Positions 42,091 through 56,973 of a DNA stretch of 64,000 nucleotides are shown here, piece after piece; position 1 is the first letter of the stretch; every line of letters begins with the position of its first letter. The notes beneath the pieces were generated by a model that was not told the origin of the DNA, ran no database searches, and saw only the letters and a list, made by a program, of their open reading frames with translations. Source of the stretch: Bacteroidota bacterium (GTDB lineage: Bacteria > Bacteroidota > Ignavibacteria > OLB7); assembly GCA_048498995.1 (NCBI GenBank), contig JBEHWX010000013.1:19437-83436 (forward strand). Reading direction: 5' to 3'. The position numbers and the translations under genes are program-made.

Positions 42091-43527
42091 TCAGCCTGTT
42101 GTGTGAAAGAGTTGTTCGATCCGTTCGTCGGCGCCGATGCCGGCCGCGATGGCCAGGCGGATCAGCTCCGGGTCGAGCTGCTGCTCCACCCCGCGCCAGT
42201 ACTCGCCGACGAAGCCGGTCGAGAAGTCGCCGCTCCGGAACGCGTCGCTGTGGAGCACGAACCGGCAGAACGGAATGGTGGTGCTCACGCCGGCCACGTG
42301 ATAGCGGTCGAGCGCCTCGAGCATCGTCGCGATCGCCTCCTCCCTCGTCTCCCCCCAGGTGATCAGCTTGGCGAGCATCGGATCGTAGTAGAGCGTCACC
42401 TGCATGCCCGGATAGAGTGACGAGTCCACGCGGATCCCGTCCCCGACCGGCTCGTGCAGATCGCGGATCGTCCCGATGCTCGGCATGAAGTTCTGGTAGA
42501 CGTCCTCGGCGCAGATGCGGCACTCGATGGCGTGCCCGCGCCGCCTGATCGACGCCGTGGTGATCTCCAGGGCTTCGCCGCGGGCCACGCGCAGCTGCAG
42601 CTCCACCAGATCGAGTCCGGTCACCAGCTCGGTCACCGGATGCTCCACCTGAAGCCTCGTGTTCACTTCGAGGAAGTAGAACCTGCCGTCGCGATCCAGA
42701 AGGAACTCGAGCGTGCCGGCGTTGGTGTAACCGGCCTCGCGGACGATCCGCTCGGCCGCCTCGAACATCGCGGCGCGGATCGTGTCGTCGATCGCGACCG
42801 ACGGCGCCTCCTCGATCACCTTCTGATGACGCCGCTGGATCGAGCACTCGCGCTCGCCGAGCACCGCCACGTTGCCGGTATCGTCGGCGATCACCTGCAG
42901 CTCGATATGTCGCGGTCCGATAATGTATTTCTCGAGGAACACCTCATCGCTGCCGAAGGAGCTCTGCGCCTCGCCGCGGGCCATGCGGATCGACTCCTCG
43001 AGCTTGTCGGGAGATTCGACCACCCGCATTCCCTTGCCGCCGCCACCGGCCGCGGCCTTCAGCAGCACCGGGTAGCCGATCCGGTCGGCGATCTCGCGAG
43101 CCTCCTCGAGCGACGTGATACCCGCGGTGGTGCCGGAGAGGACCGGCACGCCGGCCGCGATCGCCAGGCGCCGCGCGTTGGTCTTGCTGCCGAGATGCTC
43201 GATCGCGTCGGGACGGGGACCGACGAAGGTGACCCCCGCCTCCTGGCAGCGGCGCGCGAACTCCGCGTTCTCGCTCAGGAAGCCATAGCCAGGATGCACG
43301 GCATCGGCGCCGGACTCACGCACCGCGGCGATCACCTTCTCCATGTCGAGATAGGTCTCCGACGGACGAAGCCCGTCCAGGCGGACGGACATATCCGCCT
43401 CGGCCACGTGGAGGGAATCGGCGTCGGCATCGGAATAGATGGCGACGGTCTCGATCCCCATGGCGCGCGCGGTGCGGATCACGCGGCGGGCGATCTCGCC
43501 CCGGTTGGCGATAAGAAGACGCTTCAT
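42091..43527 (-). CDS. accC: biotin carboxylase (acetyl-CoA carboxylase subunit)
   Basis: MKRLLIANRGEIARRVIRTARAMGIETVAIYSDAD... with ATP-grasp motifs. Start at ATG 43527; the ORF-track N-extension overlaps mutS2. Confidence 0.9.
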   Translation of the reverse strand: MKRLLIANRGEIARRVIRTARAMGIETVAIYSDADADSLHVAEADMSVRLDGLRPSETYLDMEKVIAAVRESGADAVHPGYGFLSENAEFARRCQEAGVTFVGPRPDAIEHLGSKTNARRLAIAAGVPVLSGTTAGITSLEEAREIADRIGYPVLLKAAAGGGGKGMRVVESPDKLEESIRMARGEAQSSFGSDEVFLEKYIIGPRHIELQVIADDTGNVAVLGERECSIQRRHQKVIEEAPSVAIDDTIRAAMFEAAERIVREAGYTNAGTLEFLLDRDGRFYFLEVNTRLQVEHPVTELVTGLDLVELQLRVARGEALEITTASIRRRGHAIECRICAEDVYQNFMPSIGTIRDLHEPVGDGIRVDSSLYPGMQVTLYYDPMLAKLITWGETREEAIATMLEALDRYHVAGVSTTIPFCRFVLHSDAFRSGDFSTGFVGEYWRGVEQQLDPELIRLAIAAGIGADERIEQLFHTTG

Positions 43528-43660
43528 GTGGGACTTGATGCTGAACGATTCGGATGGAAGCCGCCCCGGCGCCGGAGGTATCTCCGATGAGACTCCCGGC
43601 GCGGGACCCGCTAGGGGGGTCCCGCGCGCGGCGGGCTCGGGGAGCGCGAACGAGGCGCGC

Positions 43661-46000
43661 TTACTTGAATTCGACGATCGTGACGCCGGCTCCCCCTTCG
43701 GAGAGGGCGCCGAGACGATAGGCCGAAATGCTCGGATGCGTGGAAAGATAATCATGAACGGCGCGCCGAAGGGCACCGGTCCCCTTTCCATGGATGATCT
43801 CCATGAACGGGATATGGGAGTTGATCGCCGCGGTGATCGACTGTTCGAGCTGCACGATCGCCTCGTCGGCGTACATGCCGCGGAGATCGACGCGGGTCTG
43901 CGCCTCGGCCGGATTGACGATCGCCTGGCGCGTGGCGGTCTCCCGCTTGGCCTCGCGACGGGTCACCGCCTCCAGCTCGCTGATGTTCGAGCGCATCCGG
44001 AGAGTGCCGAACTGCACCACGACGTTCCCCTTGTCGTCCGGATCGAACTCCAGCTCGCCGATCTGGTTCCCCCCCTTCACCCGGACGGTATCTCCCTTCC
44101 GGAATCCGCCGGGCGTCCCTTCCTTCGCCTCCACCGGCTTCATCCCGCCGCGGGCTTCCTCGATCGCGCGGCGCATCTCCTTGATCTGATCGTTGGACGC
44201 GCCGGCGCGGATCTCCCGGACGGTATTCTCGATCATGCTGTTGGCGCGGGCCAGCGTCTCGCGGGCCTCCTGACGCGCCTCGTTCACGATCTGGTTCTTC
44301 CGGTCGGTCAGATCCTTCCGCTCCGCCTCCAGCCGCTTCCGGAGGGCCTCCGCGGTGGAGCGCTCCTTCTCGTAGTCGGCGCGGATCCGGCGGCTCTGCG
44401 CCAGATCCTCCTCAAGCTGACCGATGATCTCGGTCATCCGGTTCCGATCATCACCAAGGCGCGCGCGGGCATCGCCGATCACCCGCTGATCGAACCCGAG
44501 GCGCTCGATCAGCTCGAAGGCATAGCTGTTCCCCGGCATGCCGATCAGCAGACGATAGGTCGGCGTGATCGTGGCCGTGTCGAACTCCATGCCGGCGTTG
44601 ACCACCGCCTGCGTGTCGTAGGCGAAGATCTTCAGGTAGCTGTGGTGCGTCGTGGCCAGGATGAAGGTCTTGCGCGCCAGCAGATGGTCGAGGATCGCCG
44701 CGGCGATCGCGCCCCCCTCGTCCGGGTCGGTGCCGGTGCCGATCTCGTCGAGCAGCACGATATCGCCGTAGCCGATGTGCCGGATGATCTCGTGGATCCG
44801 GGACATGTGGGAGCTGAAGGTGGACAGATCATTCTCCACCGACTGCTGATCGCCGATATCGGTGAAGAGCCGGCAGGGATGCACCGTGCAGTCGTCGGCC
44901 GGCGGATGGATGCCGCAGAGGGCCATCATCACCACGAGGCCGAGCGTCTTCATCGCAACGGTCTTGCCGCCGGCGTTCGGGCCGGAGATCACCACGCAGC
45001 GCGTCCGCTGATCGAGCTCGATCGACATCGGCACCACGCTCTCCAGGCGCATCAGCAGGATCGGATGCCGCGCGTTGACCAGCGTGATCAGGTCGTCGTC
45101 GGTCACCTTCGGCTCGGTACAGTCGTACTTGCGGGCGTAGCGCGCGCGCGCGAAGATCGAGTCGACCGCCTGGAGGCTCCAGAGCGATTCGAGATACGCG
45201 TCGGCCTCGGAGCCGAGCTCCTCGGTGAGGGTGCGGAGAATCCGCTCCACCTCGCGGCGCTCGGCGAAGGTCAGCTCGGCGATCTCGTTGTTCATGTCGA
45301 AGATCTCCGCCGGCTCCAGGAACACGGTGCCGCCGGTCTGCGACTCGCCGTGGATGATGCCGGGGATCCGACGCTTGTACTCGGACTTGACCGGCAGCAC
45401 CAGACGTCCCTCGCGGAGCGTCACATACTCGTCGGCCACCAGCTCGTCGGCGGCAACGCGACGGAGGATCTTCTGCAGCCGGTCGCGGAGCGCGGCCGAG
45501 CGGTCGATGATCTCCCGCCGGATCCGCTGAAGCTCGCGGCTGGCGTTGTCGCGGACGCGGCCGGTCTCGTCGATCGCGTCCTGGATATGCCGCTCCAGCA
45601 GACGGTTGCCATGGATGGCGCTGGTGAGCTGGTGGAGCGTCGGGGCCGCGTCGCGGCGCGCGGTGAAGAACTCACGCGTCTGACGCAGCGACTGGATCGT
45701 GGTGAGGACGTGCAGAAAGTTCTCGCCGCTCAGATAGCTCCCGGTGATCCGGGAGATCGAGAGCGCCTCGCGGATGTCGTAGATGCCGTTGAGCGGGGGC
45801 TCCTCCCCACGCTCGAGCAGCAGGCGCATCTCGCTGACCATTCTGAGCTCCCCTCGGATCGCCTCCTCGTCGGCCAGGGGCATCATCTCGCTGATATGCT
45901 CCACGCCGAGCGAGGAGGTCGCCATGCCGGCGATCTCCTCGAGAACACGGTAGAATTCAAGCTGATCCAGACTCAGTCGAAACAGATCCTCACTCGTCAT
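43661..46000 (-). CDS. mutS2: endonuclease MutS2 (MutS domain V ATPase plus C-terminal Smr)
   Basis: 779 aa. Walker A (ISGPNAGGKTVAMK), MutS ATPase motifs. C-terminal Smr domain (VDLRGMYADEAIVQLEQSI...HGKGTGALR). Confidence 0.92.
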   Translation of the reverse strand: MTSEDLFRLSLDQLEFYRVLEEIAGMATSSLGVEHISEMMPLADEEAIRGELRMVSEMRLLLERGEEPPLNGIYDIREALSISRITGSYLSGENFLHVLTTIQSLRQTREFFTARRDAAPTLHQLTSAIHGNRLLERHIQDAIDETGRVRDNASRELQRIRREIIDRSAALRDRLQKILRRVAADELVADEYVTLREGRLVLPVKSEYKRRIPGIIHGESQTGGTVFLEPAEIFDMNNEIAELTFAERREVERILRTLTEELGSEADAYLESLWSLQAVDSIFARARYARKYDCTEPKVTDDDLITLVNARHPILLMRLESVVPMSIELDQRTRCVVISGPNAGGKTVAMKTLGLVVMMALCGIHPPADDCTVHPCRLFTDIGDQQSVENDLSTFSSHMSRIHEIIRHIGYGDIVLLDEIGTGTDPDEGGAIAAAILDHLLARKTFILATTHHSYLKIFAYDTQAVVNAGMEFDTATITPTYRLLIGMPGNSYAFELIERLGFDQRVIGDARARLGDDRNRMTEIIGQLEEDLAQSRRIRADYEKERSTAEALRKRLEAERKDLTDRKNQIVNEARQEARETLARANSMIENTVREIRAGASNDQIKEMRRAIEEARGGMKPVEAKEGTPGGFRKGDTVRVKGGNQIGELEFDPDDKGNVVVQFGTLRMRSNISELEAVTRREAKRETATRQAIVNPAEAQTRVDLRGMYADEAIVQLEQSITAAINSHIPFMEIIHGKGTGALRRAVHDYLSTHPSISAYRLGALSEGGAGVTIVEFK

Positions 46001-46006
46001 CGGACA

Positions 46007-46456
46007 TCATCCCTTTGCTTGGAGTTCTTCGCGCACCATTGCCTGGACGCGCGCGCCATCGGCGCGTCCGCGCATCGCGGCCATCGCCTTGGGCATCACC
46101 ACCTTGAAATCGGTCGGGCCGGACGCGCCGGTCTCCGTGATGATCGCGCGCACCTGGTCGCGGATCTCGTCGTCGTTCAACTGCTGCGGCAGATAGGTCT
46201 CGATGATGCCGAGCTCATCGGCCTCGCGCGCGGCAAGATCCTCGCGCTGGGCCAGACGGTACTGCTCGATGGCATCCTTGCGGCGCTTGGCCTGGTTCTG
46301 CAGCGTGCGGAGCTCGTCGTCCGCGGTGAAGGCCTTGCCGCTCTTCTCAAGCTCCAGGAGCGCGGCGCGCAGCATCCGGAGCGTCTCCAGCCGGAGCTTC
46401 TCCCCGGCGCGCATTGCCTCTTTCAGGTCCTCGCTGATTCGTTCGGTGATCGTCAT
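46007..46456 (-). CDS. yqeY: GatB/YqeY domain protein
   Basis: MTITERISEDLKEAMRAGEKLRLETLRMLRAAL... is the YqeY family. Start at internal ATG 46456. Confidence 0.8.
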   Translation of the reverse strand: MTITERISEDLKEAMRAGEKLRLETLRMLRAALLELEKSGKAFTADDELRTLQNQAKRRKDAIEQYRLAQREDLAAREADELGIIETYLPQQLNDDEIRDQVRAIITETGASGPTDFKVVMPKAMAAMRGRADGARVQAMVREELQAKG

Positions 46457-46770
46457 GATGCTCTGAACGTAGATCGTGATTGACGCCGGCCACCCGTTCC
46501 CGCCCACGCGGGAGCCGATCGGCGCCGGCCGTTATGTGCGACGATGATCCGGGCGCCGATGTTGCCGGTCCGGATGCATCGAACATTGCCCCGCGCGGCG
46601 TGCGCGTCGTATGTTGGGTTCCGCCGCGGCTTCCAGGCCCGGCGATACCACCGGAGCATCGCATCCCGGTGACACGCCCGAGTCCGGAGGGCGATACTCT
46701 CTGCGAGGTCCAGCGCCGGCGCCTGCCCAATGGGTCGGCCGCGCGAAAACGCCAAATTTACGATCTGCCG

Positions 46771-47694
46771 ATGAAACGCGTTCTCTCTCTCCTGCCAAGC
46801 ACCACCGAAATCCTCTTTCTCATCGGCGCCGGAGACCAGCTCGTCGGCGTCACCCATGAGTGCGATTATCCGGCCGAGGCTCGTCAGAAGCCGCGCGTCA
46901 CCTCGGCGCGCATCAATCCGATGATGGCCAGCGACGAGATCGACGCGCTGGTGCGCCAGCAGCTGGAGGACTCCGGATCGCTCTACGCGCTGGACATGGA
47001 GCTGGTGCGCGATCTGAGCCCCGAGCTGGTGCTGACCCAGCAGCTCTGCACCGTCTGCGCCGTCGGCTATGCCACCGTTCACGCCGCGATGCGCACGCTC
47101 CCCGAGCCCCCGCTCGTGATGAACATCGAGCCCCGCTCGCTCGACGAGGTCTTCGCGTCGTTCGTCGAGATCGGCCGGCGGCTCGAGCTCGAGGAAGCGG
47201 CCCGGAACCGGGTGGCCGAACTGCGCGCGCGCCTTGCCGCCATTCCGCCGCTCGCCCCGGCGCCACGGGTGCTCCTGCTCGAGTGGCTGATTCCCCCCTT
47301 CTCCGCCGGACATTGGATGGCGGAGATCGTCGAGGCGGCCGGCGCCCTTCCGGTGCTTCACAACAAGGGGGAGCACTCGCGACAGCTGAGCTGGGAGGCG
47401 ATCGGCGCGGCCGAGTTCGACACGCTGGTGATCACCTGCTGCGGCTTCCCGGTGGAGCGGACGCTGCTCGATCTGGAGCGGAGCGAGGAATTACGGGAGT
47501 TGATCGCCGCGCGCCCCTGGCTACGCCTGATCGTCTTCGACGGCAATCACTTCTTCAGCCGTCCCGGCCCCCGGCTCGTCGAAAGCGCGGAGCTGCTCCA
47601 CGCGGCGCTTGCCGGCGCCGATCCCGAGACGGTGGGCTCGACAATTTCGAGACCATATCTCGAGGTGATCCCGGCCGAGGTCGCTCACCGCTGA
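46771..47694 (+). CDS. cobalamin/Fe-siderophore-type periplasmic-binding-protein-fold protein (BtuF-like), no signal peptide detected
   Basis: MKRVLSLLPSTTEILFLIGAGDQLVGVTHECDYP... is the class III (cluster A) substrate-binding fold N-terminus. Start ATG 46771. Confidence 0.65.
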   Translation: MKRVLSLLPSTTEILFLIGAGDQLVGVTHECDYPAEARQKPRVTSARINPMMASDEIDALVRQQLEDSGSLYALDMELVRDLSPELVLTQQLCTVCAVGYATVHAAMRTLPEPPLVMNIEPRSLDEVFASFVEIGRRLELEEAARNRVAELRARLAAIPPLAPAPRVLLLEWLIPPFSAGHWMAEIVEAAGALPVLHNKGEHSRQLSWEAIGAAEFDTLVITCCGFPVERTLLDLERSEELRELIAARPWLRLIVFDGNHFFSRPGPRLVESAELLHAALAGADPETVGSTISRPYLEVIPAEVAHR

Positions 47695-47840
47695 ATCGGA
47701 TCCGGGGCATGCTCCTTGTGCCATTCGATGCGCGGAGCGTCATGTCGCTCCCGAAGGCGCGCCACGTCGGCCCGCGCGGCATGGTCCGGCGTGGATCGTC
47801 GTCGTGGCGATCATCGATAACGACAGGTCGGAGGAGAACC

Positions 47841-48056
47841 ATGGACCCGAAGGAACGAGCCGAGGAGCGGCATGACCAGTCGCGGCCGGACACTCACGGA
47901 GCCGATGCGTCGGCCAACGAGCGACACGAGAAGAGGAACCCGGCACAGGTAACCCGGAACGAAGAGGCCAACCCCGGTGCCGGCGGCCGCGCCGACCGCG
48001 ATCCGGCCGAGGGAGCGCGCGACGAATACGGCACGCGCCCCGGCGAGGAGCAGTAA
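47841..48056 (+). CDS. 71-aa highly charged, disordered hypothetical protein
   Basis: GGAGGAG 3 nt upstream of ATG 47841. MDPKERAEERHDQSRPDTHGADASANERHEKRNPAQVTRNEEANPGAGGRADRDPAEGARDEYGTRPGEEQ. Composition could be a GC-frame artefact. Confidence 0.25.
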   Translation: MDPKERAEERHDQSRPDTHGADASANERHEKRNPAQVTRNEEANPGAGGRADRDPAEGARDEYGTRPGEEQ

Positions 48057-48099
48057 TCCCACGCGCGGAAACAGCCAAGTTACGTTACGAGGTCCGGCG

Positions 48100-48172
48100 G
48101 GAGAAGCCGTTCGCGCCGAATGGTGGAAACACAGTGTGACGCGCCGGAAGCTCCGCCGAGGCGGCATCCGGC
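48100..48172. repeat. 73-bp conserved repeat, copy 1 (module-boundary element)
   Basis: gggagaagccgttcgcgccgaatggtggaaacacagtgtgacgcgc...gctccgccgaggcggcatccgg, near-identical to 51229-51301. In copy 2 it lies in frame with a transposase-like ORF. Confidence 0.8.
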
Positions 48173-48236
48173 AAGCGCACGGGCCACGTCTCGATTGCGG
48201 CGAGGCCGGTCACCATACCGGAGCTGACAAAGCAGA

Positions 48237-48283
48237 CCGGGATCGGAGAGCTCCTCTCCGATCCCGGTATCGTTTTCATTCGG
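48237..48283. terminator. strong hairpin plus T-tract (likely bidirectional terminator) at 3' end of module 2
   Basis: ccgggatcggagag-ctc-ctctccgatcccgg perfect 14-bp stem (48237-48267), then TATCGTTTTCATTCGG. Lies 15-60 nt beyond the stop of gene 48298..49629. Confidence 0.55.
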
Positions 48284-48297
48284 TCGGATGTGCACTT

Positions 48298-49629
48298 CTA
48301 CCGGACGACCACCTTCACCAGGCCGATCACGCTTCCATCGAGTGAGACTCTAACGATGTAGGTTCCCGCGGACAGATCCCCAAGCTCCGTGAGCGGAACT
48401 GACGTTTCTCCAGGCTCGACCATGATCTCCGGCCCGCGCCACACTTCCCTTCCAAGCAGATCGCTCAACGTTACGTCGAGGCGCCCGCCATGCCCGAGAT
48501 CCACGCGAAGGGAAGCAGCGCCGTCCGGCGAGAGCGGATTGGGCACCAAGCGGAAATTCGCGACGTGCTTCCGAGGCATTGCCACCGATGAAACCGATCC
48601 CGATTGATGGATGTAGATTCTGCCGTCGGAGCCCGTAGCCAGCACACGCGTCGGGCTCAGGTAATGAAGCCCAGATAGGGCAATGATCCTCGCGAAATCG
48701 GCACTCGAGTCGCGGACCCACACGCGCCCTCCGTCACTAGTCCGGAACACAGCGGATGAGTAGTCACCGATGATCCCATTTAGTGTATCGAGAAACGCCA
48801 TCGACAAGATCTGCCAGAACTGGCGATCCAGATCGCTGTCGATCCTCACCTCCCAGGTCCTGGCCCCGTCTTCCGTATAGGCAAGTTGCAGCCTTGAAAG
48901 CTCTCCAGTTGACTCAACAAGAAATCGAGACGCCATCCATCCGTGCAGCGAATCGAGGAAGTACAGTTTTTGGGCTTTGTCGCGCGAGGGCATTCTCCGC
49001 CATGTGTGTCCGGTATCGTCGGTCCGAAAGAGCCGTGTCGAATCTCCGTACGTGACGCAGAGCGCATAAAAATTTGCCGGCGTGGGAGTCGAGATCTCGA
49101 CAACCCCGATTGGAAAGTCCACCGGCGGCAGCTCCGATTCGCGCCATGTCCGTCCACTATCAGTCGTTACCATAATGGTGTGATAGCCAAAGGTCGTAAC
49201 ACCGGTCCGTGCGTCGGCCATTGTCACGAGCTTGATCTTGTCCGTGGTGAAGGTGTCCCGGCTCCACGTATTCCCGCCGTCACGTGTAATCACCACTTGC
49301 CCGCTATCACCACCAACCATGCATACGCTGGGCGTCGGATACGAGATATATCGAAGCGGGATCGGCAACGCGTGCGGCCATGTGGCTGCTCCGGAATCCA
49401 GAAAGACGATCCGCCATGTACGTCCGCCGTCCGTGGATTTACGCACGTCGAACTCCGAAAATCCCCGTGTACCAAGGGCCATGCAGTTCACGGAATCGGC
49501 ACAGTCAAGGCATCGAAACTGATACAACGGAATCGAGTCAATGACCTCCCATCGCCCCGTCTGGGCATAGATTCGTCCGCAGAACAGAAGGAACCCAGCA
49601 ACAATCAGAAGGCGAGCAATACGCTCCAT
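48298..49629 (-). CDS. secreted BNR/Asp-box beta-propeller protein with T9SS C-terminal sorting domain (subtype I, paralog A)
   Basis: Signal peptide MERIARLLIVAGFLLFCGRIYAQ. Repeated S/T-x-D-x-G-x-T-W motifs (STDGGRTW, TRDGGNTW, TDSGRTW, TDDTGHTW, TEDGARTW, TSDGGRVW). C-terminal about 85 aa LVPNPLSPDGAASLRVDL...SAGTYIVRVSLDGSVIGLVKVVVR matches the Por_Secre_tail pattern. Confidence 0.8.
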   Translation of the reverse strand: MERIARLLIVAGFLLFCGRIYAQTGRWEVIDSIPLYQFRCLDCADSVNCMALGTRGFSEFDVRKSTDGGRTWRIVFLDSGAATWPHALPIPLRYISYPTPSVCMVGGDSGQVVITRDGGNTWSRDTFTTDKIKLVTMADARTGVTTFGYHTIMVTTDSGRTWRESELPPVDFPIGVVEISTPTPANFYALCVTYGDSTRLFRTDDTGHTWRRMPSRDKAQKLYFLDSLHGWMASRFLVESTGELSRLQLAYTEDGARTWEVRIDSDLDRQFWQILSMAFLDTLNGIIGDYSSAVFRTSDGGRVWVRDSSADFARIIALSGLHYLSPTRVLATGSDGRIYIHQSGSVSSVAMPRKHVANFRLVPNPLSPDGAASLRVDLGHGGRLDVTLSDLLGREVWRGPEIMVEPGETSVPLTELGDLSAGTYIVRVSLDGSVIGLVKVVVR

Positions 49630-49722
49630 TGGATCGACTCCGGTATGTGACTATGCGAATCACCGTGGCGCTTGAGAATCATCGCTGACATGCGGAGGCA
49701 TGAATGACCTCGCGCGGGCACG

Positions 49723-50682
49723 TTAACGAGACACAAATGTGCCCGTTGTGAAATTGCATCCACCGAACGAAACTCTGTAGAAGTAGACGCCAGGGACCAA
49801 CCGTCCGCGGTCAATGACAAACCTATACACTCCATCGCCATCCAACACGGGCCGAAGTTCATCAACCTTTCTACCCGACACATCATTCAACTCCAGCAGG
49901 CCCTTGGCCGCAACCTCGGGTTTGCAGAGTATCGTCATTTCCAGGCCCAGATTGAAGATCTGCACATCATTGATGCGGTCCGCCTTGATAGCTCCCGTCA
50001 CGGGCTTACCTGATGTATCACTAAAGACAATGTTATCACACATCGCGAAACAGGATGATGTCGTAAAATCTCCAATGATAGGATTGATGGGAAATCCCGG
50101 GTTCCCGGATTCGGCATCCACCTCACAAGAAGTTGCGGTTGAGCGTTGATATTCGGTAACGATGCTAACATTACCATTCAGATCCTTGCAAACGCGATAG
50201 CGTGCAACGCAACACCCCGAGCCCTGGCAGGGGCGGATCGTCGGGATGGATCCGACATTCGTCTGCTTCCAGCAACCAGCAACACTGACACGGTAGTAAT
50301 TGATACATGAACCTGCGACAGGATTGGAGAACGGAAGAATCCCGGCAGTGAGGAGATATTGTGCCACCTCACGGAGCCAATCCCCCGGGAAGCACCCCGC
50401 GCATGTCCCAGACACATACTCGATCTTATATATCTGAATGTCGACATAGTTATCCGGCGGGCAGGCATTTCGAAAGACGTACCAGGCTCTAACCTGGCAA
50501 CTGCTCCCGCATGTAGTCAATGTGAAGGCCCAATTGCTGACTCCGACGGTGTTCCAGGAATGCTCTGGACAATCAGGGTAACAGAGCAGGTCTTCTTCCG
50601 AAGGCTGTGCATGGGCCGAGGTGGCAGTGGCAAAGAAGGTCGCGAAGAGCGCCATCATTGCCAGAAGTGTGACTCTCGACAT
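49723..50682 (-). CDS. secreted cysteine-rich protein of unrecognised family with T9SS-type C-terminal domain (paralog B)
   Basis: Signal peptide MSRVTLLAMMALFATFFATATSAHAQ. About 18 Cys in the mature region (LLCYPDCP, TTCGSSCQ, GTCAGC, GCCVARYRVCK, SSCFAMC). C-terminal VYRFVIDRGRLVPGVYFYRVSFGG... resembles the T9SS CTD. Paralogous to 55708..56664. Confidence 0.7.
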   Translation of the reverse strand: MSRVTLLAMMALFATFFATATSAHAQPSEEDLLCYPDCPEHSWNTVGVSNWAFTLTTCGSSCQVRAWYVFRNACPPDNYVDIQIYKIEYVSGTCAGCFPGDWLREVAQYLLTAGILPFSNPVAGSCINYYRVSVAGCWKQTNVGSIPTIRPCQGSGCCVARYRVCKDLNGNVSIVTEYQRSTATSCEVDAESGNPGFPINPIIGDFTTSSCFAMCDNIVFSDTSGKPVTGAIKADRINDVQIFNLGLEMTILCKPEVAAKGLLELNDVSGRKVDELRPVLDGDGVYRFVIDRGRLVPGVYFYRVSFGGCNFTTGTFVSR

Positions 50683-50925
50683 GATTCGTACCTCGTCGAT
50701 AGTAAGTAGTGGATCGACCGCGAACCCTCACTCCTCCCCCATGCGCAATTCCCGTTCTCTCCCGGACTCCGGCCGCTGGTGCGTGATGGCCGACCGTGTC
50801 GAAGTGCGTCGAATGCTGGAAGCCCTGCTTCCGGAATATGCCGGTGAATCGGTGTGTCTTACCTGACGTCGCCAATGGGCGGAACGTGGGTACAAAGGTA
50901 CAGCTCGATACCATTGCTGTCAAGT
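50683..50925 (-). promoter_or_regulatory. conserved about 200-nt leader plus candidate promoter upstream of Cys-rich gene B (copy 1)
   Basis: Near-identical to 56665-56905. On minus strand: TTGACA (rc 50918-50923), N17, TACCTTTG (rc 50893-50900). The conserved leader has hairpins GGAAGC-AGG-GCTTCC and CCGG-CATATT-CCGG. Confidence 0.5.
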
Positions 50926-51228
50926 GGGCCTCAAACGAAAAGAGCCGGGCGCATTGCCTCACAAATAATGTAACCAGAGGTCGTTGGCGGCCAGGGTCGT
51001 TGCCTCATAATAGATGTAACCGATCTAGCACTGAGGCAACGCTATGTCAGAAGCATCCAGACGTGAGTACCTACGGGCCATCTACAGGCGCTATCACACG
51101 GCATCCGTCGAGCAGAAAGGACGCATCCTCGATGAGTTCACCGCTGCCTGCGGCTACAACCGCAAGTACGCCATCCGGCTGCTCAATGCGCCACTGGATC
51201 CTCCTGCCAGGCCACCGAAGCGTCCGGT

Positions 51229-51301
51229 GGGAGAAGCCGTTCGCGCCGAATGGTGGAAACACAGTGTGACGCGCGCGACGCTCCGCCGAGGCGGCATCCG
51301 G
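51229..51301. repeat. 73-bp conserved repeat, copy 2 (module-boundary element)
   Basis: Near-identical to 48100-48172 (differences only around gcgc-c/g-g-a/c-a/g-gctcc). Confidence 0.8.
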
Positions 51302-51379
51302 TGGGATCACCGGCCTGGCGGCCGCGATAGTGACGCCCGATCGCCATCGATCAATATGCCGGTACGAACAAAGCAGGCC

Positions 51380-51420
51380 GGGATCGGAGAGCGGCTCTCC
51401 GATCCCAGTTTCGTTTTCAT
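51380..51420. terminator. strong hairpin plus T-tract (likely bidirectional terminator) at 3' end of module 1
   Basis: gggatcggagagc-g-gctctccgatccc (51380-51406) then AGTTTCGTTTTCAT. Lies 20-60 nt beyond the stop of gene 51439..52773. Homologous to the 48237 hairpin. Confidence 0.55.
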
Positions 51421-51438
51421 TCGGTCGGATGTGCCCTT

Positions 51439-52773
51439 CTAGCGCGCAAGCACCTTCACCAAGCCGATCACGCTTCCATCGAGTGAGACTCTGACAATGT
51501 AGGTTCCCGCGGACAGTCTCCCACGCGGCGCCAGCGGGATCGTCCTCTCGCCAGGCCCAATCACCTCTCCCTGCTCGGTCGCCACCTCCCTTCCGAGCAT
51601 GTCCGTGACCACCACTGTGAGGCGTCCGCCACGCTCCGTCGAGAGCCTGATCATCGCCATGCCGTCGCGGTCTACGGGATTGGGTGACAAACTTAGGCCG
51701 GTACGGCTCGTACCGATCTCCGCAACACCGGACTCCGGTTCGGACTCCGAGACGTAGATCTTGCCGTCGGCCGTCGCGGAGATCAGGCGTGTCGGCGTCA
51801 GATACTCGACACCCACGAAAATTTCAAGATTAGAGGCGAACACGTTCCAATCCCGATACCAGGTGCGCCCCCCGTCGCTGGTCAACCATACAGAGAGCGA
51901 ATAATCACCAATAATACCGTTGAGTGAATCACGGAATGCCATCGACATAATCCTCCAGAACTTGCCATTCAAGTCACTGTCGATCAATGTCTCCCAGGTC
52001 TTCCCTCCGTCACGCGTGTAGGCAAGGTTTAGCCGAGAAAGCTCTCCGTTTGGATCGATAATGAATCGGGACGCCATCCATCCCCGAAGCGAATCGAGAA
52101 AATAAATATTGAAGGCTTGGTCGCGCGATGGCAGTCGTTGCCAGGTTCTGCCCGTGTCGTCGGTTCGAAACAAAAGTGTTGAATCTCCACGAGTTGCACA
52201 TAGGCCCAGGAATGTCCCTGAAGCCGGTGTGGACACATCAGCCACTCCATGGGGATCGGATAAGTCAGGCCACAGGGATTGCCTCCATGTCGCACCTCCA
52301 TCGGTCGTCACCAATACCGAATCTGCGCCGATCACGATCATCCCGACGTTCGCATCCGACATTGACACAGCATTCACTTTGAGATTGCCGAACGTGTCGC
52401 GACTCCATGTACTACCTCCGTCATGTGTAACGAGCAACTGTCCTTTGTCGCCTCCGACCATGCATACATCGGCAGTCGGATGTGAGATATGACGCAGCGG
52501 TGCGGGCAGCGGGTGAGGCCATCCGCTCCCACCAGAGTCAATGTAGACGGTACGCCAAGTCCGGCCGCCATCAGTGGATCTGCGCACGTCAAACTCACCG
52601 AACCCGAATGTTCCAACCGCCATGCAATGCAGAGAATCAGCGCAATCGAGACACATGTACGTGAAACGGTAGACTGAGTCCTGCAACCGCCAATCCGAAA
52701 TTTGAGCAACGCTTCGGTTCCCAATGGTGGCAAGAGCCAGAATCGCGATGGCAAGAATCACGCGCTTCTTCAT
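51439..52773 (-). CDS. secreted BNR/Asp-box beta-propeller protein with T9SS CTD (subtype II, paralog C)
   Basis: Start at MKKRVILAIAILALATIGNRSVAQ (ATG 52773). BNR motifs (STDGGRTW, THDGGSTW, TDGGATW, TDDTGRTW, TRDGGKTW, TSDGGRTW). CTD ...SAGTYIVRVSLDGSVIGLVKVLAR. Confidence 0.8.
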   Translation of the reverse strand: MKKRVILAIAILALATIGNRSVAQISDWRLQDSVYRFTYMCLDCADSLHCMAVGTFGFGEFDVRRSTDGGRTWRTVYIDSGGSGWPHPLPAPLRHISHPTADVCMVGGDKGQLLVTHDGGSTWSRDTFGNLKVNAVSMSDANVGMIVIGADSVLVTTDGGATWRQSLWPDLSDPHGVADVSTPASGTFLGLCATRGDSTLLFRTDDTGRTWQRLPSRDQAFNIYFLDSLRGWMASRFIIDPNGELSRLNLAYTRDGGKTWETLIDSDLNGKFWRIMSMAFRDSLNGIIGDYSLSVWLTSDGGRTWYRDWNVFASNLEIFVGVEYLTPTRLISATADGKIYVSESEPESGVAEIGTSRTGLSLSPNPVDRDGMAMIRLSTERGGRLTVVVTDMLGREVATEQGEVIGPGERTIPLAPRGRLSAGTYIVRVSLDGSVIGLVKVLAR

Positions 52774-52811
52774 GGCGATGTCGGTATTAGGCTGTTGGAA
52801 CAAGATCCGTT

Positions 52812-54143
52812 TTATGGGACAATCGCCTTCACCATGCCGATCACTCTTCCGTCCACCGAGATCCGAATGACGTAGGATCCGGGGGGCATGTCCCGAAACC
52901 CCGTAAGTGGAACTAGGGTTTCTCCAGGCCCGGCAATGACCTCCGCCCCGCGCCACACATCCCTTCCAAGAAGATCGACCATTGTAAGGTCGAGACGACC
53001 GCCGTGTTCGAGCTTCATCCGCAGCGAGGGGGTGCCATCCGACGAGACCGGATTGGGCGCTAGGCTGACATCGGCAACGTCATTGCGAACCATGATCACT
53101 GATGAAACCGGACCCGATTCATCGATAAAAACCTTTCCGTCGGAAGACACAGCCAGCAGACGCGTCGGGTTGAGATACTGAAGTCCCGAAGGAGCAAAGA
53201 TCTGAGCACTCAGAGCGCTTGAATCACGAAGCCACGTATACCCTCCATCACTCGTCCCGAAGACAGCGGAAGAGTTATCTCCAATCACGCCATGCAAGGT
53301 ATCGAGAAACGCGATCGACATGATCCGCCAGAACTGACGATTCAGATCACTGTCGATCCTCACTTCCCACGTTCTGGCGCCATCATTCGTGTAGGCAAGT
53401 TGCAGTCTCGAAAGCTCTCCATTCGGATCGATACTATTTCTGGAGGCCATCCAACCGTGCAGCGAATCGAGGAAATAAATATCCCGGGCCTTATCTCGCG
53501 ATGGCATTTTTCGCCACGTATGCCCGGCGTCGTCAGATCGAAAGAGCGGCGTCGAATCGCCATACGTGGCGCAGAGTGCGTAGAAGGTCGACGGCGTCGG
53601 AGTCACCATCTCGCTAACACCAATTGGAAAGTCCACCGGGGGCAGCTCTGATTCTCGCCAGGAACGACCGGTATCGGTCGTGACCAATATCGTATGATAT
53701 CCAAAGGACGTAACGCCGGTCCGCGCGTCCGCCATTGCCACAAGCTTAATCTTATCTGTCGTGAGCGTATCACGGCTCCAGGTGCCTCCTCCGTCTCGTG
53801 TTATCAGCACCTGGCCGCTATCTCCACCAACAATGCACACATTCGGATCAGGATACGAAACGTGGCGGAGAAGGATAGGCAGCGAATGGGGCCACGTGGC
53901 TGCTCCTGAATCCAGAAACACAGTTCGCCAGGTGCGTCCTCCATCGGCGGACTTCCGGATAAGCGATGCCGCGAACCCCTTTGTTCCGACGACCATGCAG
54001 TTCATGGAATCCGCGCAGTCAAGCGACAGATATTGGACATTCGGTATCGAGTCGACGACCTCCCATCGCCCCGTCTGGGCGTGAAGCTGCACACCGAGTA
54101 CGATCCCGAGCACGATCAGAAAGTGACGGGCCATGCAATGCAT
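52812..54143 (-). CDS. secreted BNR/Asp-box beta-propeller protein with T9SS CTD (subtype I, paralog D)
   Basis: Signal MHCMARHFLIVLGIVLGVQLHAQ (start 54143 or 54134). Roughly 80% identical by eye to paralog A over the N-terminal half. CTD ...SYVIRISVDGRVIGMVKAIVP. Confidence 0.8.
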   Translation of the reverse strand: MHCMARHFLIVLGIVLGVQLHAQTGRWEVVDSIPNVQYLSLDCADSMNCMVVGTKGFAASLIRKSADGGRTWRTVFLDSGAATWPHSLPILLRHVSYPDPNVCIVGGDSGQVLITRDGGGTWSRDTLTTDKIKLVAMADARTGVTSFGYHTILVTTDTGRSWRESELPPVDFPIGVSEMVTPTPSTFYALCATYGDSTPLFRSDDAGHTWRKMPSRDKARDIYFLDSLHGWMASRNSIDPNGELSRLQLAYTNDGARTWEVRIDSDLNRQFWRIMSIAFLDTLHGVIGDNSSAVFGTSDGGYTWLRDSSALSAQIFAPSGLQYLNPTRLLAVSSDGKVFIDESGPVSSVIMVRNDVADVSLAPNPVSSDGTPSLRMKLEHGGRLDLTMVDLLGRDVWRGAEVIAGPGETLVPLTGFRDMPPGSYVIRISVDGRVIGMVKAIVP

Positions 54144-54268
54144 GCGAGATTCTCCAGCAAGTGAACCAAATGCTGCCTGGTAAGGGCCGAGGAGTCTCAC
54201 CCTTCCGCGGGATTCCATCCCGGCATGGCGGACTATCGGTCAGCCAGCACCTGAGGTGCAGACTCTCC

Positions 54269-55606
54269 TTATCGAACGAAGGCCTTCACCACGCCGATCA
54301 TATCTCCATCAAGCGCGATTCTGACGATGTAGGTTCCCGCGGACAGTCTCCCACGCGGCGCCAGCGGGAGCGTCCTCTCGCCAGGCCCAATCACCTCTTC
54401 CTGCTCGGTCGCCACCTCCCTTCCGAGCAGGTCCGTAACGACCACGTCAAGGCGCCCACCCCGCTCCGTCGAGAGCCTGATCATCGCCATGCCGTCGCGG
54501 TCGACGGGATTGGGTGACAAGCTTAGGCCGGTACGGCTCGTACCGATCTCCGTAACACCGGACTCCGGCTGAGATTCGAAGGCGTAGATCTTGCCGTCGG
54601 CCGTCGCGGAGATCAGGCGCGTCGGGGTCAGGTACTCGACACCCGAGAATGTCGTAAGCTTCAGAGCATACACACTCCAGTCCCGATACCAGGTACGTCC
54701 ACCGTCACTGGTCAACCATACGGCAAACGAGTAGTCACCGATGATGCCATTGAGCGTATCCTTGAACGCCATCGAATGGATCTTCCAGAACTTGCCGTTC
54801 AAATCGCTGTCGATCAACTGTTCCCACTGCTCCCCACCATCACGTGTATAGGCGAGATCCAGCCGCGAAAGCTCCCCATTCGGATCGACACGAATTCGAG
54901 ATGCCATCCACCCATGGAGCGAATCGATGAAGTAGATATTCTGCGCTCTATAGCGGGAAGGCATTTGCCGCCAGGTTCGTCCCGTATCATCCGTACGAAA
55001 CAGATAGCTAGAATCGCTCATTACAACACAAAGCACAAGAAAGGTTCCGGGAGCAGGTGCTGTGATATCGACAACTCCATACGCGCGAGGCATCGATGGC
55101 ATCTCCGATTCCCCCCAGGTTCTTCCCCCGTCAGTAGTCACAAATATCGAATCGGCACCAATCGCAAACATGCCCACATTTGCATTAGACATTACAACTG
55201 TTTTCACATTGAGATCGCCGAATATCTGACGGCTCCATGTTGCCCCCCCGTCTCGTGTTACAAGCACTTGCCCTTTGTCCCCGCCGACCGCACATATATC
55301 TGCAGAAGGATATGAGATATGTCGCAATGGAGCAGGTAGTGGGTGCGGCCAGCCAATGCCCCCAGAATCCAGATAAACCGTGCGCCAGGTTCGGCCTCCA
55401 TCGGTGGACTTGCGTATATCGAACTCGCCGAACCCGAACGTACTGATGGCCATGCAGTGCAGCGAATCCGCGCAGTCGAGGCTCATGTAAGACATCTGAT
55501 AAACGGAGTCCTGCAGTTCCCAGTCACTGATCTGTGCAAGCAGGCGGCTTCCCGCGAGAAACAGCATCAATGACAACACCGAAATCAAAGTTTTTCTAAA
55601 CATCAT
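54269..55606 (-). CDS. secreted BNR/Asp-box beta-propeller protein with T9SS CTD (subtype II, paralog E)
   Basis: Signal MMFRKTLISVLSLMLFLAGSRLLAQ. Roughly 75% identical by eye to paralog C. The 3' about 120 bp are virtually identical to C at DNA level. Confidence 0.8.
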   Translation of the reverse strand: MMFRKTLISVLSLMLFLAGSRLLAQISDWELQDSVYQMSYMSLDCADSLHCMAISTFGFGEFDIRKSTDGGRTWRTVYLDSGGIGWPHPLPAPLRHISYPSADICAVGGDKGQVLVTRDGGATWSRQIFGDLNVKTVVMSNANVGMFAIGADSIFVTTDGGRTWGESEMPSMPRAYGVVDITAPAPGTFLVLCVVMSDSSYLFRTDDTGRTWRQMPSRYRAQNIYFIDSLHGWMASRIRVDPNGELSRLDLAYTRDGGEQWEQLIDSDLNGKFWKIHSMAFKDTLNGIIGDYSFAVWLTSDGGRTWYRDWSVYALKLTTFSGVEYLTPTRLISATADGKIYAFESQPESGVTEIGTSRTGLSLSPNPVDRDGMAMIRLSTERGGRLDVVVTDLLGREVATEQEEVIGPGERTLPLAPRGRLSAGTYIVRIALDGDMIGVVKAFVR

Positions 55607-55707
55607 TCAACCTCAGAGTTTCCCCTGTGAGATATCAACAGACAAACATAAACGCCACAAGGTTATTAGGTATCCGTTGCTGCCGCAACGGATACCTAAT
55701 AATACAC

Positions 55708-56664
55708 TCACCGACCGAAGAACTCTCCGGTCGTGAAATTTTGACCGTTGAATGAGATTCGGTAATAGTAGATGCCACTCCCGAATCTGATCCGGTCGAC
55801 CAAGAACCTGCATGCATTATCGCCCACAATTACGGGGCGAAGTTCGGCGACTTTCTTACCCTGAGCATCGAAAATTTCTGCAACCCCTTCCAACAGGGAT
55901 TGGGGGCGACACAAGATCTGCATTTCAGCTCCCTGATGAAATACCTGAACATCATCAGTGATATTATATTGACCGCCCCAATACTTCTTGCCGAATGAAT
56001 CATTAATTGTGATCGCATCGCACTGCGGAGTGCAGGATGATGTCGTTTGGTCTCCAATCACGGGGTTATACGGAAAATTTAGATCGAGCGACTCCGGATC
56101 ATTATCGCATGGGGGCTGAGTTGGCGATTGATATTCAGTCGTAATCGTTATTCGATCGTCGGTACCCTTGCACACCTTATATCGTGCAACGCAACATCCC
56201 GCGGACTGGCAAGCTCGTATTGACGGTACAGAGCCGACTTTGACCTCTTTCCAACAGCTTGCGATACTAACCCTAAAGTAGGTAACACAGTTATCAGGGT
56301 CAGGGTTTGGAAACAGAGAGATGTTATCGACCAGCAAATGTTCGGCTGCTCCTTGGATCCAATCCGAAATCGAACAGCTCGTACATGTTCCAGACACGTA
56401 TTCGATCTTATAAATCTGAACATCCTGATAGTTACTGGGCGCACACGCCGTCCGATACACGTACCAGGCCCGAAGTTGACAGGAGCTACCACATGTGGTC
56501 AGTGTAAACATGTGATTGGATACGCCTACCGTACTCCATTGATCGGCTGGGCAGTCCGGGTAACAGAGCAAGTCTCCGTACGAAGGTTGGGCCATGGCGG
56601 TTACCGCGAGCCCGAGAAACGCGGCGATGAGTGAGAGCATGCCTCTCAAAATGATTCTCGACAT
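55708..56664 (-). CDS. secreted cysteine-rich protein of unrecognised family with T9SS-type CTD (paralog F)
   Basis: Signal MSRIILRGMLSLIAAFLGLAVTAMAQ. Conserved Cys framework shared with paralog B (LLCYPDCP...FTLTTCGSSCQ.RAWYV.R.AC.P.NY.D.QIYKIEYVSGTC..C...CCVARY.VCK). CTD ...GIYYYRISFNGQNFTTGEFFGR. Confidence 0.7.
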   Translation of the reverse strand: MSRIILRGMLSLIAAFLGLAVTAMAQPSYGDLLCYPDCPADQWSTVGVSNHMFTLTTCGSSCQLRAWYVYRTACAPSNYQDVQIYKIEYVSGTCTSCSISDWIQGAAEHLLVDNISLFPNPDPDNCVTYFRVSIASCWKEVKVGSVPSIRACQSAGCCVARYKVCKGTDDRITITTEYQSPTQPPCDNDPESLDLNFPYNPVIGDQTTSSCTPQCDAITINDSFGKKYWGGQYNITDDVQVFHQGAEMQILCRPQSLLEGVAEIFDAQGKKVAELRPVIVGDNACRFLVDRIRFGSGIYYYRISFNGQNFTTGEFFGR

Positions 56665-56905
56665 GATTCGTACCTCGTCGATAGTATGTAGTGGATCGAC
56701 CGCGAATCCTCACTCCCCTTCGTGGGCAAATCCTCCCTCCCGGACTCCGGCCGCTGATGCGTGATGGTCGGTCGTATCGATGTCCGTCGAGTGCTGGAAG
56801 CCCTGCTTCCGGAATATGCCGGTGAATCGGTGTGTCGTACCTGACGTCGCCATCTGGCTGAACGCGGGTACAAAGGTACAACTTGACACCATCGCGACCA
56901 AGCGG
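56665..56905 (-). promoter_or_regulatory. conserved about 200-nt leader plus candidate promoter upstream of Cys-rich gene F (copy 2)
   Basis: Near-identical to 50683-50925. On minus strand: TTGGTC (rc 56896-56901), N17, TACCTTTG (rc 56871-56878). Confidence 0.5.
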
Positions 56906-56973
56906 CGCCAAACGCAACGAGCCGGTGAGGCACTTCCCTCACCGGCTCGTACAATCGCTCTTCTGATTCTCCC

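What the first reader, a model, noticed from the sequence alone, without database searches (positions are those of the whole stretch)
47977..48300. Module boundaries marked by a conserved 73-bp repeat, a shared strong hairpin terminator and a transposase-like fragment
Both modules terminate the same way, in regions 47977-48300 and 51044-51442. Each has the repeat gggagaagccgttcgcgccgaatggtggaaacacagtgtgacgcgc...ggcggcatccgg (48100-48172; 51229-51301) followed about 70 nt later by a near-identical 13-14 bp hairpin plus T-tract (48237-48283; 51380-51420). At 51044 the repeat is in frame with an ORF whose first about 60 aa (RREYLRAIYRRYHTASVEQKGRILDEFTAACGYNRKYAIRLL) look like the N-terminal HTH of a DDE transposase or integrase. 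This suggests the cassette was duplicated or mobilised via an IS-like element that has since decayed, leaving a terminator-containing scar that now ends both operons.
Basis: partly seen in the sequence, partly recalled or inferred. Interest (0 to 1): 0.55.

Follow-up and report, generated by a model that had tools for sequence, protein, structure and literature searches.

The report
Repeated operon tail beside dead transposase
Two neighbouring, anciently duplicated operons for secreted proteins share the same downstream DNA (a conserved 73-94 bp block and a two-way terminator hairpin), and the stump of a dead insertion sequence sits at the joint between them. This is an ordinary product of duplication, gene conversion and mobile-element decay, not a new kind of element.

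Summary
A 94-bp direct repeat (48092-48185 / 51222-51315; its 73-bp core is 94.5% identical) and a near-identical 12-15 bp GC-rich hairpin occur exactly twice in the window.

The genes they follow lie on the minus strand. Unit A is 48092-50949 and unit B is 51222-56927. Both encode T9SS-type secreted proteins in a low-GC island.

The repeat plus hairpin is each unit's own 3' flank. The hairpin scans as a terminator on both strands, and in copy A a 71-aa gene converges on it.

The 272 bp between the units (50950-51221) is the left end of an ISNCY-family insertion sequence. It holds two 22-bp subterminal repeats and transposase codons 1-62 (profile E 4.8e-30). Transposase homology stops exactly where the repeat starts. 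No right end or other transposase piece is in the window, and IS relatives do not carry the repeat. The repeat is therefore not an IS scar.

Synonymous sites between the paralogues are saturated, yet the flanks are 85-95% identical. Two 98%-identical metagenome contigs lack unit B and the IS stump, and carry a B-type patch in their A tail. This points to gene conversion and recombination between units. More distant relatives have no island.

The parts
48092..48185 (.). Repeat copy A: the distal edge of duplicated unit A. Its conserved 73-bp core is 48100-48172. It starts 36 nt downstream of the stop codon of the convergent 71-aa gene.
   Evidence: (D10)
51222..51315 (.). Repeat copy B: the distal edge of duplicated unit B. 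It begins where transposase homology ends, and GTCCGG is shared at the joint.
48173..48228 (.). Diverged spacer of tail A, only 49% identical to tail B 51303-51371. In the single-module strains this stretch is B-type.
48236..48283 (.). Hairpin A (15-bp stem, 3-nt loop) with T-rich runs on both sides. It scans as a terminator on both strands, serving A2 (minus) and the 71-aa gene (plus).
51378..51420 (.). Hairpin B (12-14 bp stem), the terminator after B4. It has the same arms as hairpin A and a different loop.
47841..48056 (+). 71-aa charged small protein gene converging on module A. It has a strong GGAGGAG ribosome-binding site. Its C-terminal motif RDPAEGARDEYGT is conserved in a 67-aa orthologue of a relative.
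48298..49629 (-). A2: 443-aa secreted BNR/Ycf48-like beta-propeller protein with a T9SS type-A C-terminal sorting domain. It is the last gene of unit A.
49723..50682 (-). A1: 319-aa Cys-rich secreted protein with a weak T9SS C-terminal domain match. It is the first gene of unit A.
50683..50949 (-). Promoter and leader of unit A, 85% identical to 56665-56927. Its distal end contains the 3' arm and T-tract of a copy of the MFS terminator.
   Evidence: (D6, D13)
50950..51043 (+). Left end of a dead ISNCY-family IS. It has two direct 22-bp repeats TTGCCTCAnAAnAnATGTAACC (50954-50975, 51000-51021), an inverted GAGGCAACG (51032-51041) and a promoter-like site at 50984-51011.
51044..51229 (+). Transposase codons 1-62 (N-terminal HTH region), cut off at the start of repeat copy B. 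The rest of ORF 51044-51442 is read-through of non-coding DNA.
51439..52773 (-). B4: paralogue of A2 (55% aa identity). Its last 24 residues are nearly identical to those of A2. It is the last gene of unit B.
52812..54143 (-). B3: paralogue of A2 (70% aa identity).
54269..55606 (-). B2: closest to B4. Its last 100 codons have dS 0.26 against 2.6 for the rest of the gene.
55708..56664 (-). B1: paralogue of A1 (55% aa identity; synonymous sites saturated).
56665..56956 (-). Promoter and leader of unit B (to 56927), followed by the intact terminator hairpin of the MFS transporter gene (56927-56956).

Best explanation
The two regions are the 3' flanks ('tails') of two tandem, anciently diverged copies of one operon unit, read on the minus strand. 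Each unit consists of promoter and leader, a Cys-rich secreted protein, one to three BNR/Ycf48-like T9SS-sorted proteins, a terminator hairpin, and about 190 bp of downstream DNA.

The hairpin is an intrinsic terminator that works in both directions. In copy A it also ends the convergent 71-aa gene. The 73-94 bp block is simply the outermost conserved piece of the duplicated unit.

Both flanks of the units (leader 85% identical; tail blocks 88-95%) stay alike while the coding sequences have diverged to synonymous saturation. The reason is that the flanks keep recombining: gene-conversion patches, and a unit-deleting crossover, are both visible in sister strains.

Between the units lies the left end, plus the first 62 codons, of a dead ISNCY-family insertion sequence. 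It had inserted into the terminator hairpin of the neighbouring MFS gene, and was then truncated by the illegitimate join that placed tail B next to it. A 6-nt microhomology GTCCGG may mark that join.

Shown: the anatomy, the identity of the IS fragment, the end point of transposase homology, the strain polymorphism and the conversion patch.
Inferred: terminator function, the order of events, and the microhomology-mediated join.
For: Unit structure:
- Minus-strand ORFs and their paralogy.
- Unit-wide homology 48092-49512 to 51222-52653 and 50402-50948 to 56384-56925.
- The promoter alignment ends at GAGCCGG, inside the MFS terminator.

Terminator:
- Hairpins are strong on both strands (z -3.2 to -5.4) and are called terminator-like on both strands.

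IS fragment:
- Profile match of residues 1-62 only, E 4.8e-30.
- BLASTP 2e-11 against an annotated ISNCY transposase.
- Two 22-bp subterminal repeats sharing the ATGTAACC motif with both ends of related IS copies.
- No other transposase piece or right end in the window.

Recombination between units:
- dS is 1.1 to above 2.5 between paralogues, but 0.29 for the last 30 codons of A2 versus B4 and 0.26 for the last 100 codons of B4 versus B2.
- Block identities: 73-bp block 94.5%, spacer 49%, hairpin plus CDS end 87.5%, leader 85%.
- Contigs L002 and L003 (98% identical to the window) carry one A-type module. They lack 5.98 kb (unit B plus the IS stump) and have a promoter that is A-like near the gene and B-like near MFS.
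- The A tail of those contigs has a B-type spacer, hairpin loop and last codons (KVLAR).

Island context:
- The island has low GC (47-60% against 64-70% in the flanks).
- It is absent from relatives with 84% and 72% MutS2 identity.
Against: - In the window, the A and B tails show two well-conserved blocks separated by a 49%-identical spacer. That pattern also fits selection on two separate functional elements, and a single conversion tract does not explain it.
- Termination and transcription were not measured.
- The order of events cannot be reconstructed. A sister-chromatid duplication model needs a later precise loss of a full IS copy. An import model needs a donor that has not been seen; B3 and B4 were found only in this genome.
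- Only 64 kb of the genome was visible, so further copies of the repeat elsewhere in the genome are not excluded.
Confidence: 0.78

Rival explanations
1. One reading: the repeat plus hairpin is the decayed remnant (scar) of an IS-like element that mobilised or duplicated the cassette and now ends both operons.
For: A real IS fragment abuts tail B, and its ORF runs in frame into the repeat. The fragment lies at the unit junction.
Against: - Transposase homology stops at 51229.
- No frame of either tail matches any transposase region.
- Relatives continue differently after the N-terminus.
- The IS end motif ATGTAACC / GGTTACAT is absent from the tails and from the rest of the window.
- Tail A has no IS remnant beside it.
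- IS-free strains keep the tail.
Confidence: 0.04
2. The 73-bp block is a functional element under purifying selection. Candidates are a small RNA or 3'-UTR element ending at the hairpin on the plus strand, or a protein-binding or recombination site that serves as a 'handle' for exchanging the variable secreted-protein cassettes.
For: - The block is 94.5% identical next to a 49%-identical spacer, while neighbouring synonymous sites are saturated.
- The plus-strand T-tract after the hairpin is at least as good as the minus-strand one.
- The conversion patch seen in L002/L003 has its end points in the conserved blocks.
Against: - No Rfam match even at E 10.
- The fold is no better than shuffles (z -0.5 to -1.5).
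- The sequences upstream of the two copies are unrelated, so no shared promoter lies upstream.
- No conserved ORF.
- No copy in any other genome or metagenome scanned.
- Demonstrated gene conversion in these same tails gives a sufficient neutral explanation.
Confidence: 0.12
3. The repeat and hairpin are members of a genome-wide REP/MITE-like family of intergenic repeats and lie near both operons by chance.
For: The hairpin is palindromic and GC-rich like REP elements. Only 64 kb of the genome could be inspected.
Against: - There are exactly two copies of the block and two of the hairpin in 64 kb. Both are embedded colinearly in a 2.9-kb duplicated unit.
- Low-stringency BLAST of the tails against the rest of the window gives only weak GC-rich noise.
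- Exact-word scans of the genome and metagenome collections gave zero matches.
Confidence: 0.03

Closest known systems
ISNCY-category insertion sequences with TnsB/Mu-like DDE transposases (NCBI 'ISNCY family transposase', e.g. WP_095678114 of Sinorhizobium; compare the IS1202 family described in PMC10132070)
   Same: The N-terminal HTH region aligns (45% identity over 47 aa, E 2e-11; profile E 4.8e-30). Two transposase-binding-type repeats lie near the end, as described for IS1202-family ends and as seen at both ends of the related copy in L004.
   Different: Only about 272 bp survive: the left end and 62 codons. There is no DDE domain, no right end and no target-site duplication, so the fragment is dead and cannot be typed to a subgroup. 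Direct kinship with IS1202 itself was not tested.
Tandem paralogue arrays homogenised by gene conversion, with copy-number polymorphism from recombination between the repeats
   Same: Flanks and 3' coding ends are mosaic and far more alike than the gene bodies. A sister lineage has lost one unit by a crossover within the 290-bp promoter repeat, and carries a conversion patch in its tail.
   Different: No evidence of programmed variation: there is no recombinase, no invertible promoter and no silent-cassette architecture. Only three strain-level sequences are available.
Bidirectional intrinsic terminators between convergent genes
   Same: A perfect 12-15 bp GC-rich stem is flanked by an A-rich run upstream and a T-rich run downstream. 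It lies between the convergent A2 and 71-aa genes and is called terminator-like on both strands.
   Different: Function is not measured. Copy B has no intact convergent gene, only the transposase stump.
Homology-facilitated illegitimate recombination or microhomology-mediated duplication junctions
   Same: The novel joint (transposase codon 62 joined to tail B) shares GTCCGG with the parental tail sequence at 48092-48097. The other side of unit B is seamless with the MFS terminator.
   Different: This is pure inference from one junction. Six nucleotides of GC-rich identity can occur by chance, and no donor sequence is known.

Membership tests
ISNCY-family insertion sequence (DDE / rve-type transposase) | Transposase N-terminal DNA-binding region homologous to family members | tested here: met
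   BLASTP 2e-11 against the annotated ISNCY transposase WP_095678114. HMM built from 20+ relatives gives E 4.8e-30 over residues 1-62.
ISNCY-family insertion sequence (DDE / rve-type transposase) | Catalytic DDE (RNase H-fold) domain present | tested here: not met
   tblastn with a full-length transposase and with both halves of the L004 copy finds only residues 1-60 in the window. Pfam and NCBIfam give nothing for the ORF. The element is a truncated remnant.
ISNCY-family insertion sequence (DDE / rve-type transposase) | Terminal or subterminal inverted repeats at both ends | tested here: not met
   The left end has two 22-bp repeats. The motif and its complement occur nowhere else in the window, and no inverted partner lies in the tails.
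ISNCY-family insertion sequence (DDE / rve-type transposase) | Target-site duplication flanking the element | not testable with these tools
   The right end is missing, so no pair of flanks exists to compare.
Intrinsic (Rho-independent) terminator, bidirectional | GC-rich stem-loop followed by a T-run on each transcribed strand, just after the stop codons | tested here: met
   Stems of 12-15 bp; terminator scan positive on both strands at both sites; z -3.2 to -5.4. The hairpins start 29-30 nt beyond the stop codons of A2 and B4.
Intrinsic (Rho-independent) terminator, bidirectional | Transcripts actually end there | not testable with these tools
   Needs RNA 3'-end mapping.
REP/MITE-like dispersed intergenic repeat | Many dispersed copies at unrelated loci | tested here: not met
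   Two copies in 64 kb, both inside the duplicated unit. No matches in the genome or metagenome collections. The rest of the source genome was not available.
Structured non-coding RNA (Rfam family or novel) | Match to a known family, or an exceptional or covarying fold | tested here: not met
   No Rfam hit at E up to 10 apart from one noise match. The 94-nt block folds no better than shuffles on either strand. Too few diverged copies exist for a covariation test.

The most novel reading that the evidence does not exclude
The conserved leader at one end, and the 73-bp block, hairpin and last ~25 codons at the other, could be maintained 'handles'. They would let highly divergent T9SS-secreted protein cassettes be exchanged, converted, duplicated or deleted within a Kapabacteria population. 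That would be a simple cassette-shuffling locus for surface or secreted-protein variation, with the 73-bp block acting as a functional recombination or RNA element rather than a passive passenger.
Probability: 0.1. Interest if true: 0.5.

Novelty: new member of a known kind. Interest (0 to 1): 0.17.

Why it matters
It matters little beyond annotation.
- ORFs 47977-48345 and 51044-51442 should not be called as genes. The latter is a transposase pseudogene stump of 62 codons.
- The hairpins are shared terminators.
- The locus is a strain-variable, low-GC island of secreted T9SS-type proteins in an uncultured Kapabacteria-like lineage.
- It is a clean small example of flanks of tandem paralogues being kept alike by recombination while the gene bodies diverge to saturation, with a dead IS marking a rearrangement joint.
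- Only if the conserved flanks proved to be selected exchange handles would it be of wider interest.

Tried and rejected
1. Rfam at E up to 10 over 47000-57500, and at gathering thresholds over the whole window: only a noise hit and one tRNA.
2. Pfam and NCBIfam on the two plus-strand ORFs and on N-terminal fragments of relatives: no families. Identification needed tblastn against annotated plasmids.
3. Exact-word scans for the repeat core in genome contigs and metagenome contigs, and for the hairpin tail in metagenome contigs: all zero.
4. The search for related loci with A2 in genome contigs: no relatives. The BNR-protein family has no homologue between 99% and 31% identity outside this genome, so no comparative test of the non-coding blocks at intermediate distance was possible.
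5. Exact look-up of the window's own proteins in the contig index failed. The 90%-cluster representative P0034 gave the informative contigs.
6. Search for an IS right end, inverted repeats or transposase C-terminus in the tails: none. A 25-aa, E = 2.1 match of the L004 transposase C-terminus to 48123-48197 was judged Arg-rich noise.
7. A 73-nt, ~70% match of tail B to 27762-27834 was inspected and judged GC-rich chance similarity.
8. Fold of the conserved 5' leader: not exceptional (z +0.49).
9. The empty-site intergenic region of L006 was compared with the tails and promoters. The only similarity is inside the 71-aa coding sequence. At that distance this cannot show whether the 73-bp block belongs to the island or to the older flank.
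Full report
**1. What is there**

- A 94-nt direct repeat lies at 48092-48185 and 51222-51315 (89% identical).
- Its 46-nt core is exact in both copies and occurs nowhere else in the window, against 0.00 matches expected from shuffles. The 3' 22-mer behaves the same way.
- About 65 and 79 nt further on lies a near-identical hairpin, at 48236-48268 (15 pairs) and 51378-51408 (12-14 pairs). Again there are only these two sites.
- The hairpins fold far better than shuffled controls on both strands (z -3.2 to -5.4). The consensus scan calls them terminator-like on both strands.
- The 94-nt block has no exceptional fold on either strand (z -0.5 to -1.5). It has no Rfam match even at E 10.

**2. Context: the genes are on the minus strand and the repeats are the ends of a much larger duplicated unit**

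The ORF map and domain scans show two operon-like units.
- Unit A: A1 (49723-50682, a 319-aa Cys-rich secreted protein) and A2 (48298-49629, a 443-aa BNR/Ycf48-like propeller with a T9SS type-A sorting tail).
- Unit B: B1 (55708-56664), then three A2 paralogues, B2, B3 and B4, ending at 51439.

Each hairpin starts 29-30 nt beyond the stop codon of the last gene of its unit. BLAST and alignments show that homology between the units runs from 48092 to 50949 in A and from 51222 to 56927 in B. It therefore also covers about 270 bp of promoter and leader (85% identical).

On the promoter side, homology stops at GAGCCGG. In unit B this is the first arm of the intact terminator hairpin of the neighbouring MFS transporter gene. 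Unit A carries only the 3' arm and the T-tract of that terminator.

On the plus strand a 71-aa gene (47841-48056) converges on A2. It has a strong Shine-Dalgarno sequence, and its C-terminal motif RDPAEGARDEYGT is conserved in a relative's 67-aa orthologue. The 73-bp block therefore lies in the convergent intergenic region, and hairpin A sits where a shared two-way terminator would be.

**3. The transposase-like fragment is real, but it is a stump**

The 132-aa ORF at 51044 has no Pfam or NCBIfam hit. In the large protein collection, 31 short proteins match its first 33-53% only. The longer ones continue with ...GPSYG..VI.AL..WEAAGYP..RLKA..P.WLP... and the start of a DDE region.

One of these relatives (P0018) matches 249 plasmid records by tblastn. 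Most of the annotated features under the listed matches are named 'ISNCY family transposase' (others: 'DDE-type integrase/transposase/recombinase', 'integrase'). Against one such 504-aa protein, the window ORF gives E 2e-11 over residues 1-47. That protein has a weak, sub-threshold rve match.

A profile built from the relatives matches window residues 1-62 (E 4.8e-30). It matches nothing else in any frame of either tail. tblastn with full-length transposases finds no other piece in the 64 kb.

Upstream of the ATG are two direct 22-bp repeats, TTGCCTCAnAAnAnATGTAACC, at 50954-50975 and 51000-51021, plus an inverted GAGGCAACG. The ATGTAACC motif recurs upstream of the transposase genes in L004 and L005. 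It appears twice in inverted form at the right end of the L004 copy. Two transposase-binding sites per end are described for the IS1202 group of ISNCY elements (PMC10132070).

Neither the motif nor its complement occurs anywhere else in the window. So 50950-51229 is the left end plus 62 codons of a dead IS. It is bounded on the left by the end of unit A and on the right by the start of unit B.

**4. The repeat is not IS-derived**
- Transposase homology ends at 51229, within a few nucleotides of the first shared base of the repeat (51222).
- Relatives continue with an unrelated sequence.
- The tails contain no IS end motif.
- Tail A has no IS remnant next to it.
- Strains that lack the IS fragment still have the tail (see section 6).
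- The hexamer GTCCGG is shared by the transposase reading frame (K-R-P-V) and the parental tail sequence at 48092-48097. It may be a microhomology at an illegitimate joint. This is an inference.

**5. Age and homogenisation**

Nei-Gojobori estimates give saturated synonymous divergence between paralogues:
- A2/B4: 1.7
- A2/B3: 1.1
- B4/B3: 2.6
- A1/B1: not computable (saturated)

The flanks are nevertheless much more alike: 73-bp block 94.5%, hairpin plus last ~80 nt of coding sequence 87.5%, leader 85%. The spacer between block and hairpin is only 49% identical.

Synonymous divergence also collapses at the 3' coding ends: 0.29 for the last 30 codons of A2/B4, and 0.26 against 2.6 for the last 100 codons of B4/B2 compared with the rest. 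Protein-level selection would not produce this, so it argues for gene conversion. A2 is closest to B3 overall, but it shares its last 24 residues with B4.

**6. Strain and species comparison**

The 90%-cluster representative of A2 led to two metagenome contigs, L002 and L003, that are 98% identical to the window.
- Their gene order is ATP synthase gamma, MFS, A1, A2, 71-aa gene, periplasmic binding protein, YqeY, MutS2. They have a single A-type unit and lack 5.98 kb, namely unit B plus the IS stump.
- Their promoter is A-like next to the gene and B-like next to MFS. This is what a crossover between the two 290-bp promoter repeats would leave.
- Their tail has an A-type 73-bp block and an A-type coding sequence. 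Between these, the spacer, hairpin loop and last codons are B-type (KVLAR instead of KVVVR).
- That is a conversion patch whose ends fall in the conserved blocks. It implies that the lineage once had unit B.

MutS2 homologues place the organism near Candidatus Kapabacteria (69% identity to a Kapabacteria MAG). Relatives with 84% and 72% MutS2 identity have MFS directly beside the 67-aa gene or the binding-protein gene, with no unit at all. Their intergenic DNA shows no similarity to the tails or promoters.

Units A and B are 47-60% GC, against 64-70% in the flanks. The whole 48.3-56.9 kb stretch is therefore a lineage-specific low-GC island. B3 and B4 were found only in this genome.

**7. Most likely history (inferred)**
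- An IS inserted into the MFS terminator distal to a unit's promoter.
- A later illegitimate join, possibly through GTCCGG, fused IS position ~272 to a point 36 nt downstream of the 71-aa gene's stop in a second copy of the unit.
- That second copy came either from unequal exchange between sister chromosomes or from imported DNA anchored by homology on the MFS side.
- The first route needs later loss of a full IS copy. The second needs an unseen donor. I cannot decide between them.
- Afterwards, recombination between the units kept the flanks alike, and in a sister lineage it deleted unit B.

**8. Comparison with known things and verdict**

All parts are familiar:
- a truncated ISNCY-type IS, which meets the N-terminal homology criterion of the family but lacks the DDE domain, the right end and a target-site duplication;
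- a bidirectional intrinsic terminator;
- tandem paralogues homogenised at their ends by gene conversion, with copy-number polymorphism.

The 'transposase-like fragment' and its link to the rearrangement are supported. The idea that the repeat and terminator are an IS scar is not.

The one feature that a neutral account explains less neatly is the sharply conserved 73-bp block next to a diverged spacer. A functional role, as a recombination handle or an RNA or protein-binding site, is not excluded, and I rate it at about 0.1.

Overall this is an ordinary finding, useful mainly for correct annotation.

Noticed in passing
window 48300-56930: The two units form a low-GC island (47-60% GC against 64-70% in the flanking housekeeping genes). 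The island is absent from the nearest sequenced relatives, where MFS lies directly beside the 67-aa gene or the binding-protein gene (L006-L008, L012).
   Followed up: partly
window 50683-50949 and 56665-56927 (minus strand): A ~270-bp promoter and leader is 85% identical between the units (80-95% in 60-nt windows), although the downstream genes are saturated at synonymous sites. It contains a conserved TTGACA/TTGGTC, 17 nt, then TACCTTTG promoter-like motif about 200 nt upstream of the start codon. The motif reading is from inspection and recalled Bacteroidota consensus. The leader has no Rfam hit and no exceptional fold (z +0.49).
   Followed up: partly
L002 and L003 versus window 50950-56930: Presence or absence polymorphism of 5.98 kb (unit B plus the IS stump) between 98%-identical strains, with a chimeric promoter at the deletion joint.
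   Followed up: yes
window 47841-48056 (+): A 71-aa, highly charged, probably disordered small protein with a strong ribosome-binding site. Only its C-terminal motif RDPAEGARDEYGT is conserved in a 67-aa orthologue (L006 3247-3450). It matches no Pfam or NCBIfam family.
   Followed up: partly
window 49723-50682 and 55708-56664 (minus strand): A1 and B1 are ~319-aa secreted, Cys-rich proteins with only a weak T9SS C-terminal domain match and no other recognised domain. They are 55% identical to each other, and each leads an operon of BNR-propeller proteins. Their function is unknown.
   Followed up: no
L004 6001-7166: The related IS copy in an unrelated metagenome contig has its transposase split into two 191-aa ORFs (frameshift or stop). 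It has paired GGTTACAT...GGCTTGAC repeats at its right end. This was useful for defining the end architecture of this IS group.
   Followed up: partly
window 43439-48056 and elsewhere in the high-GC flanks: Very long overlapping ORFs on the strand opposite real genes, or in alternative frames (for example 43439-46483 at 1014 aa, and 46860-48056 at 398 aa). These are artefacts of high GC content, not genes.
   Followed up: no
window 27762-27834: A ~70% identical, gapped, GC-rich similarity to tail B 51286-51352 (relaxed-score BLAST, E 5e-6). It lies just upstream of ORF 27864-28673 and was judged chance similarity.
   Followed up: partly
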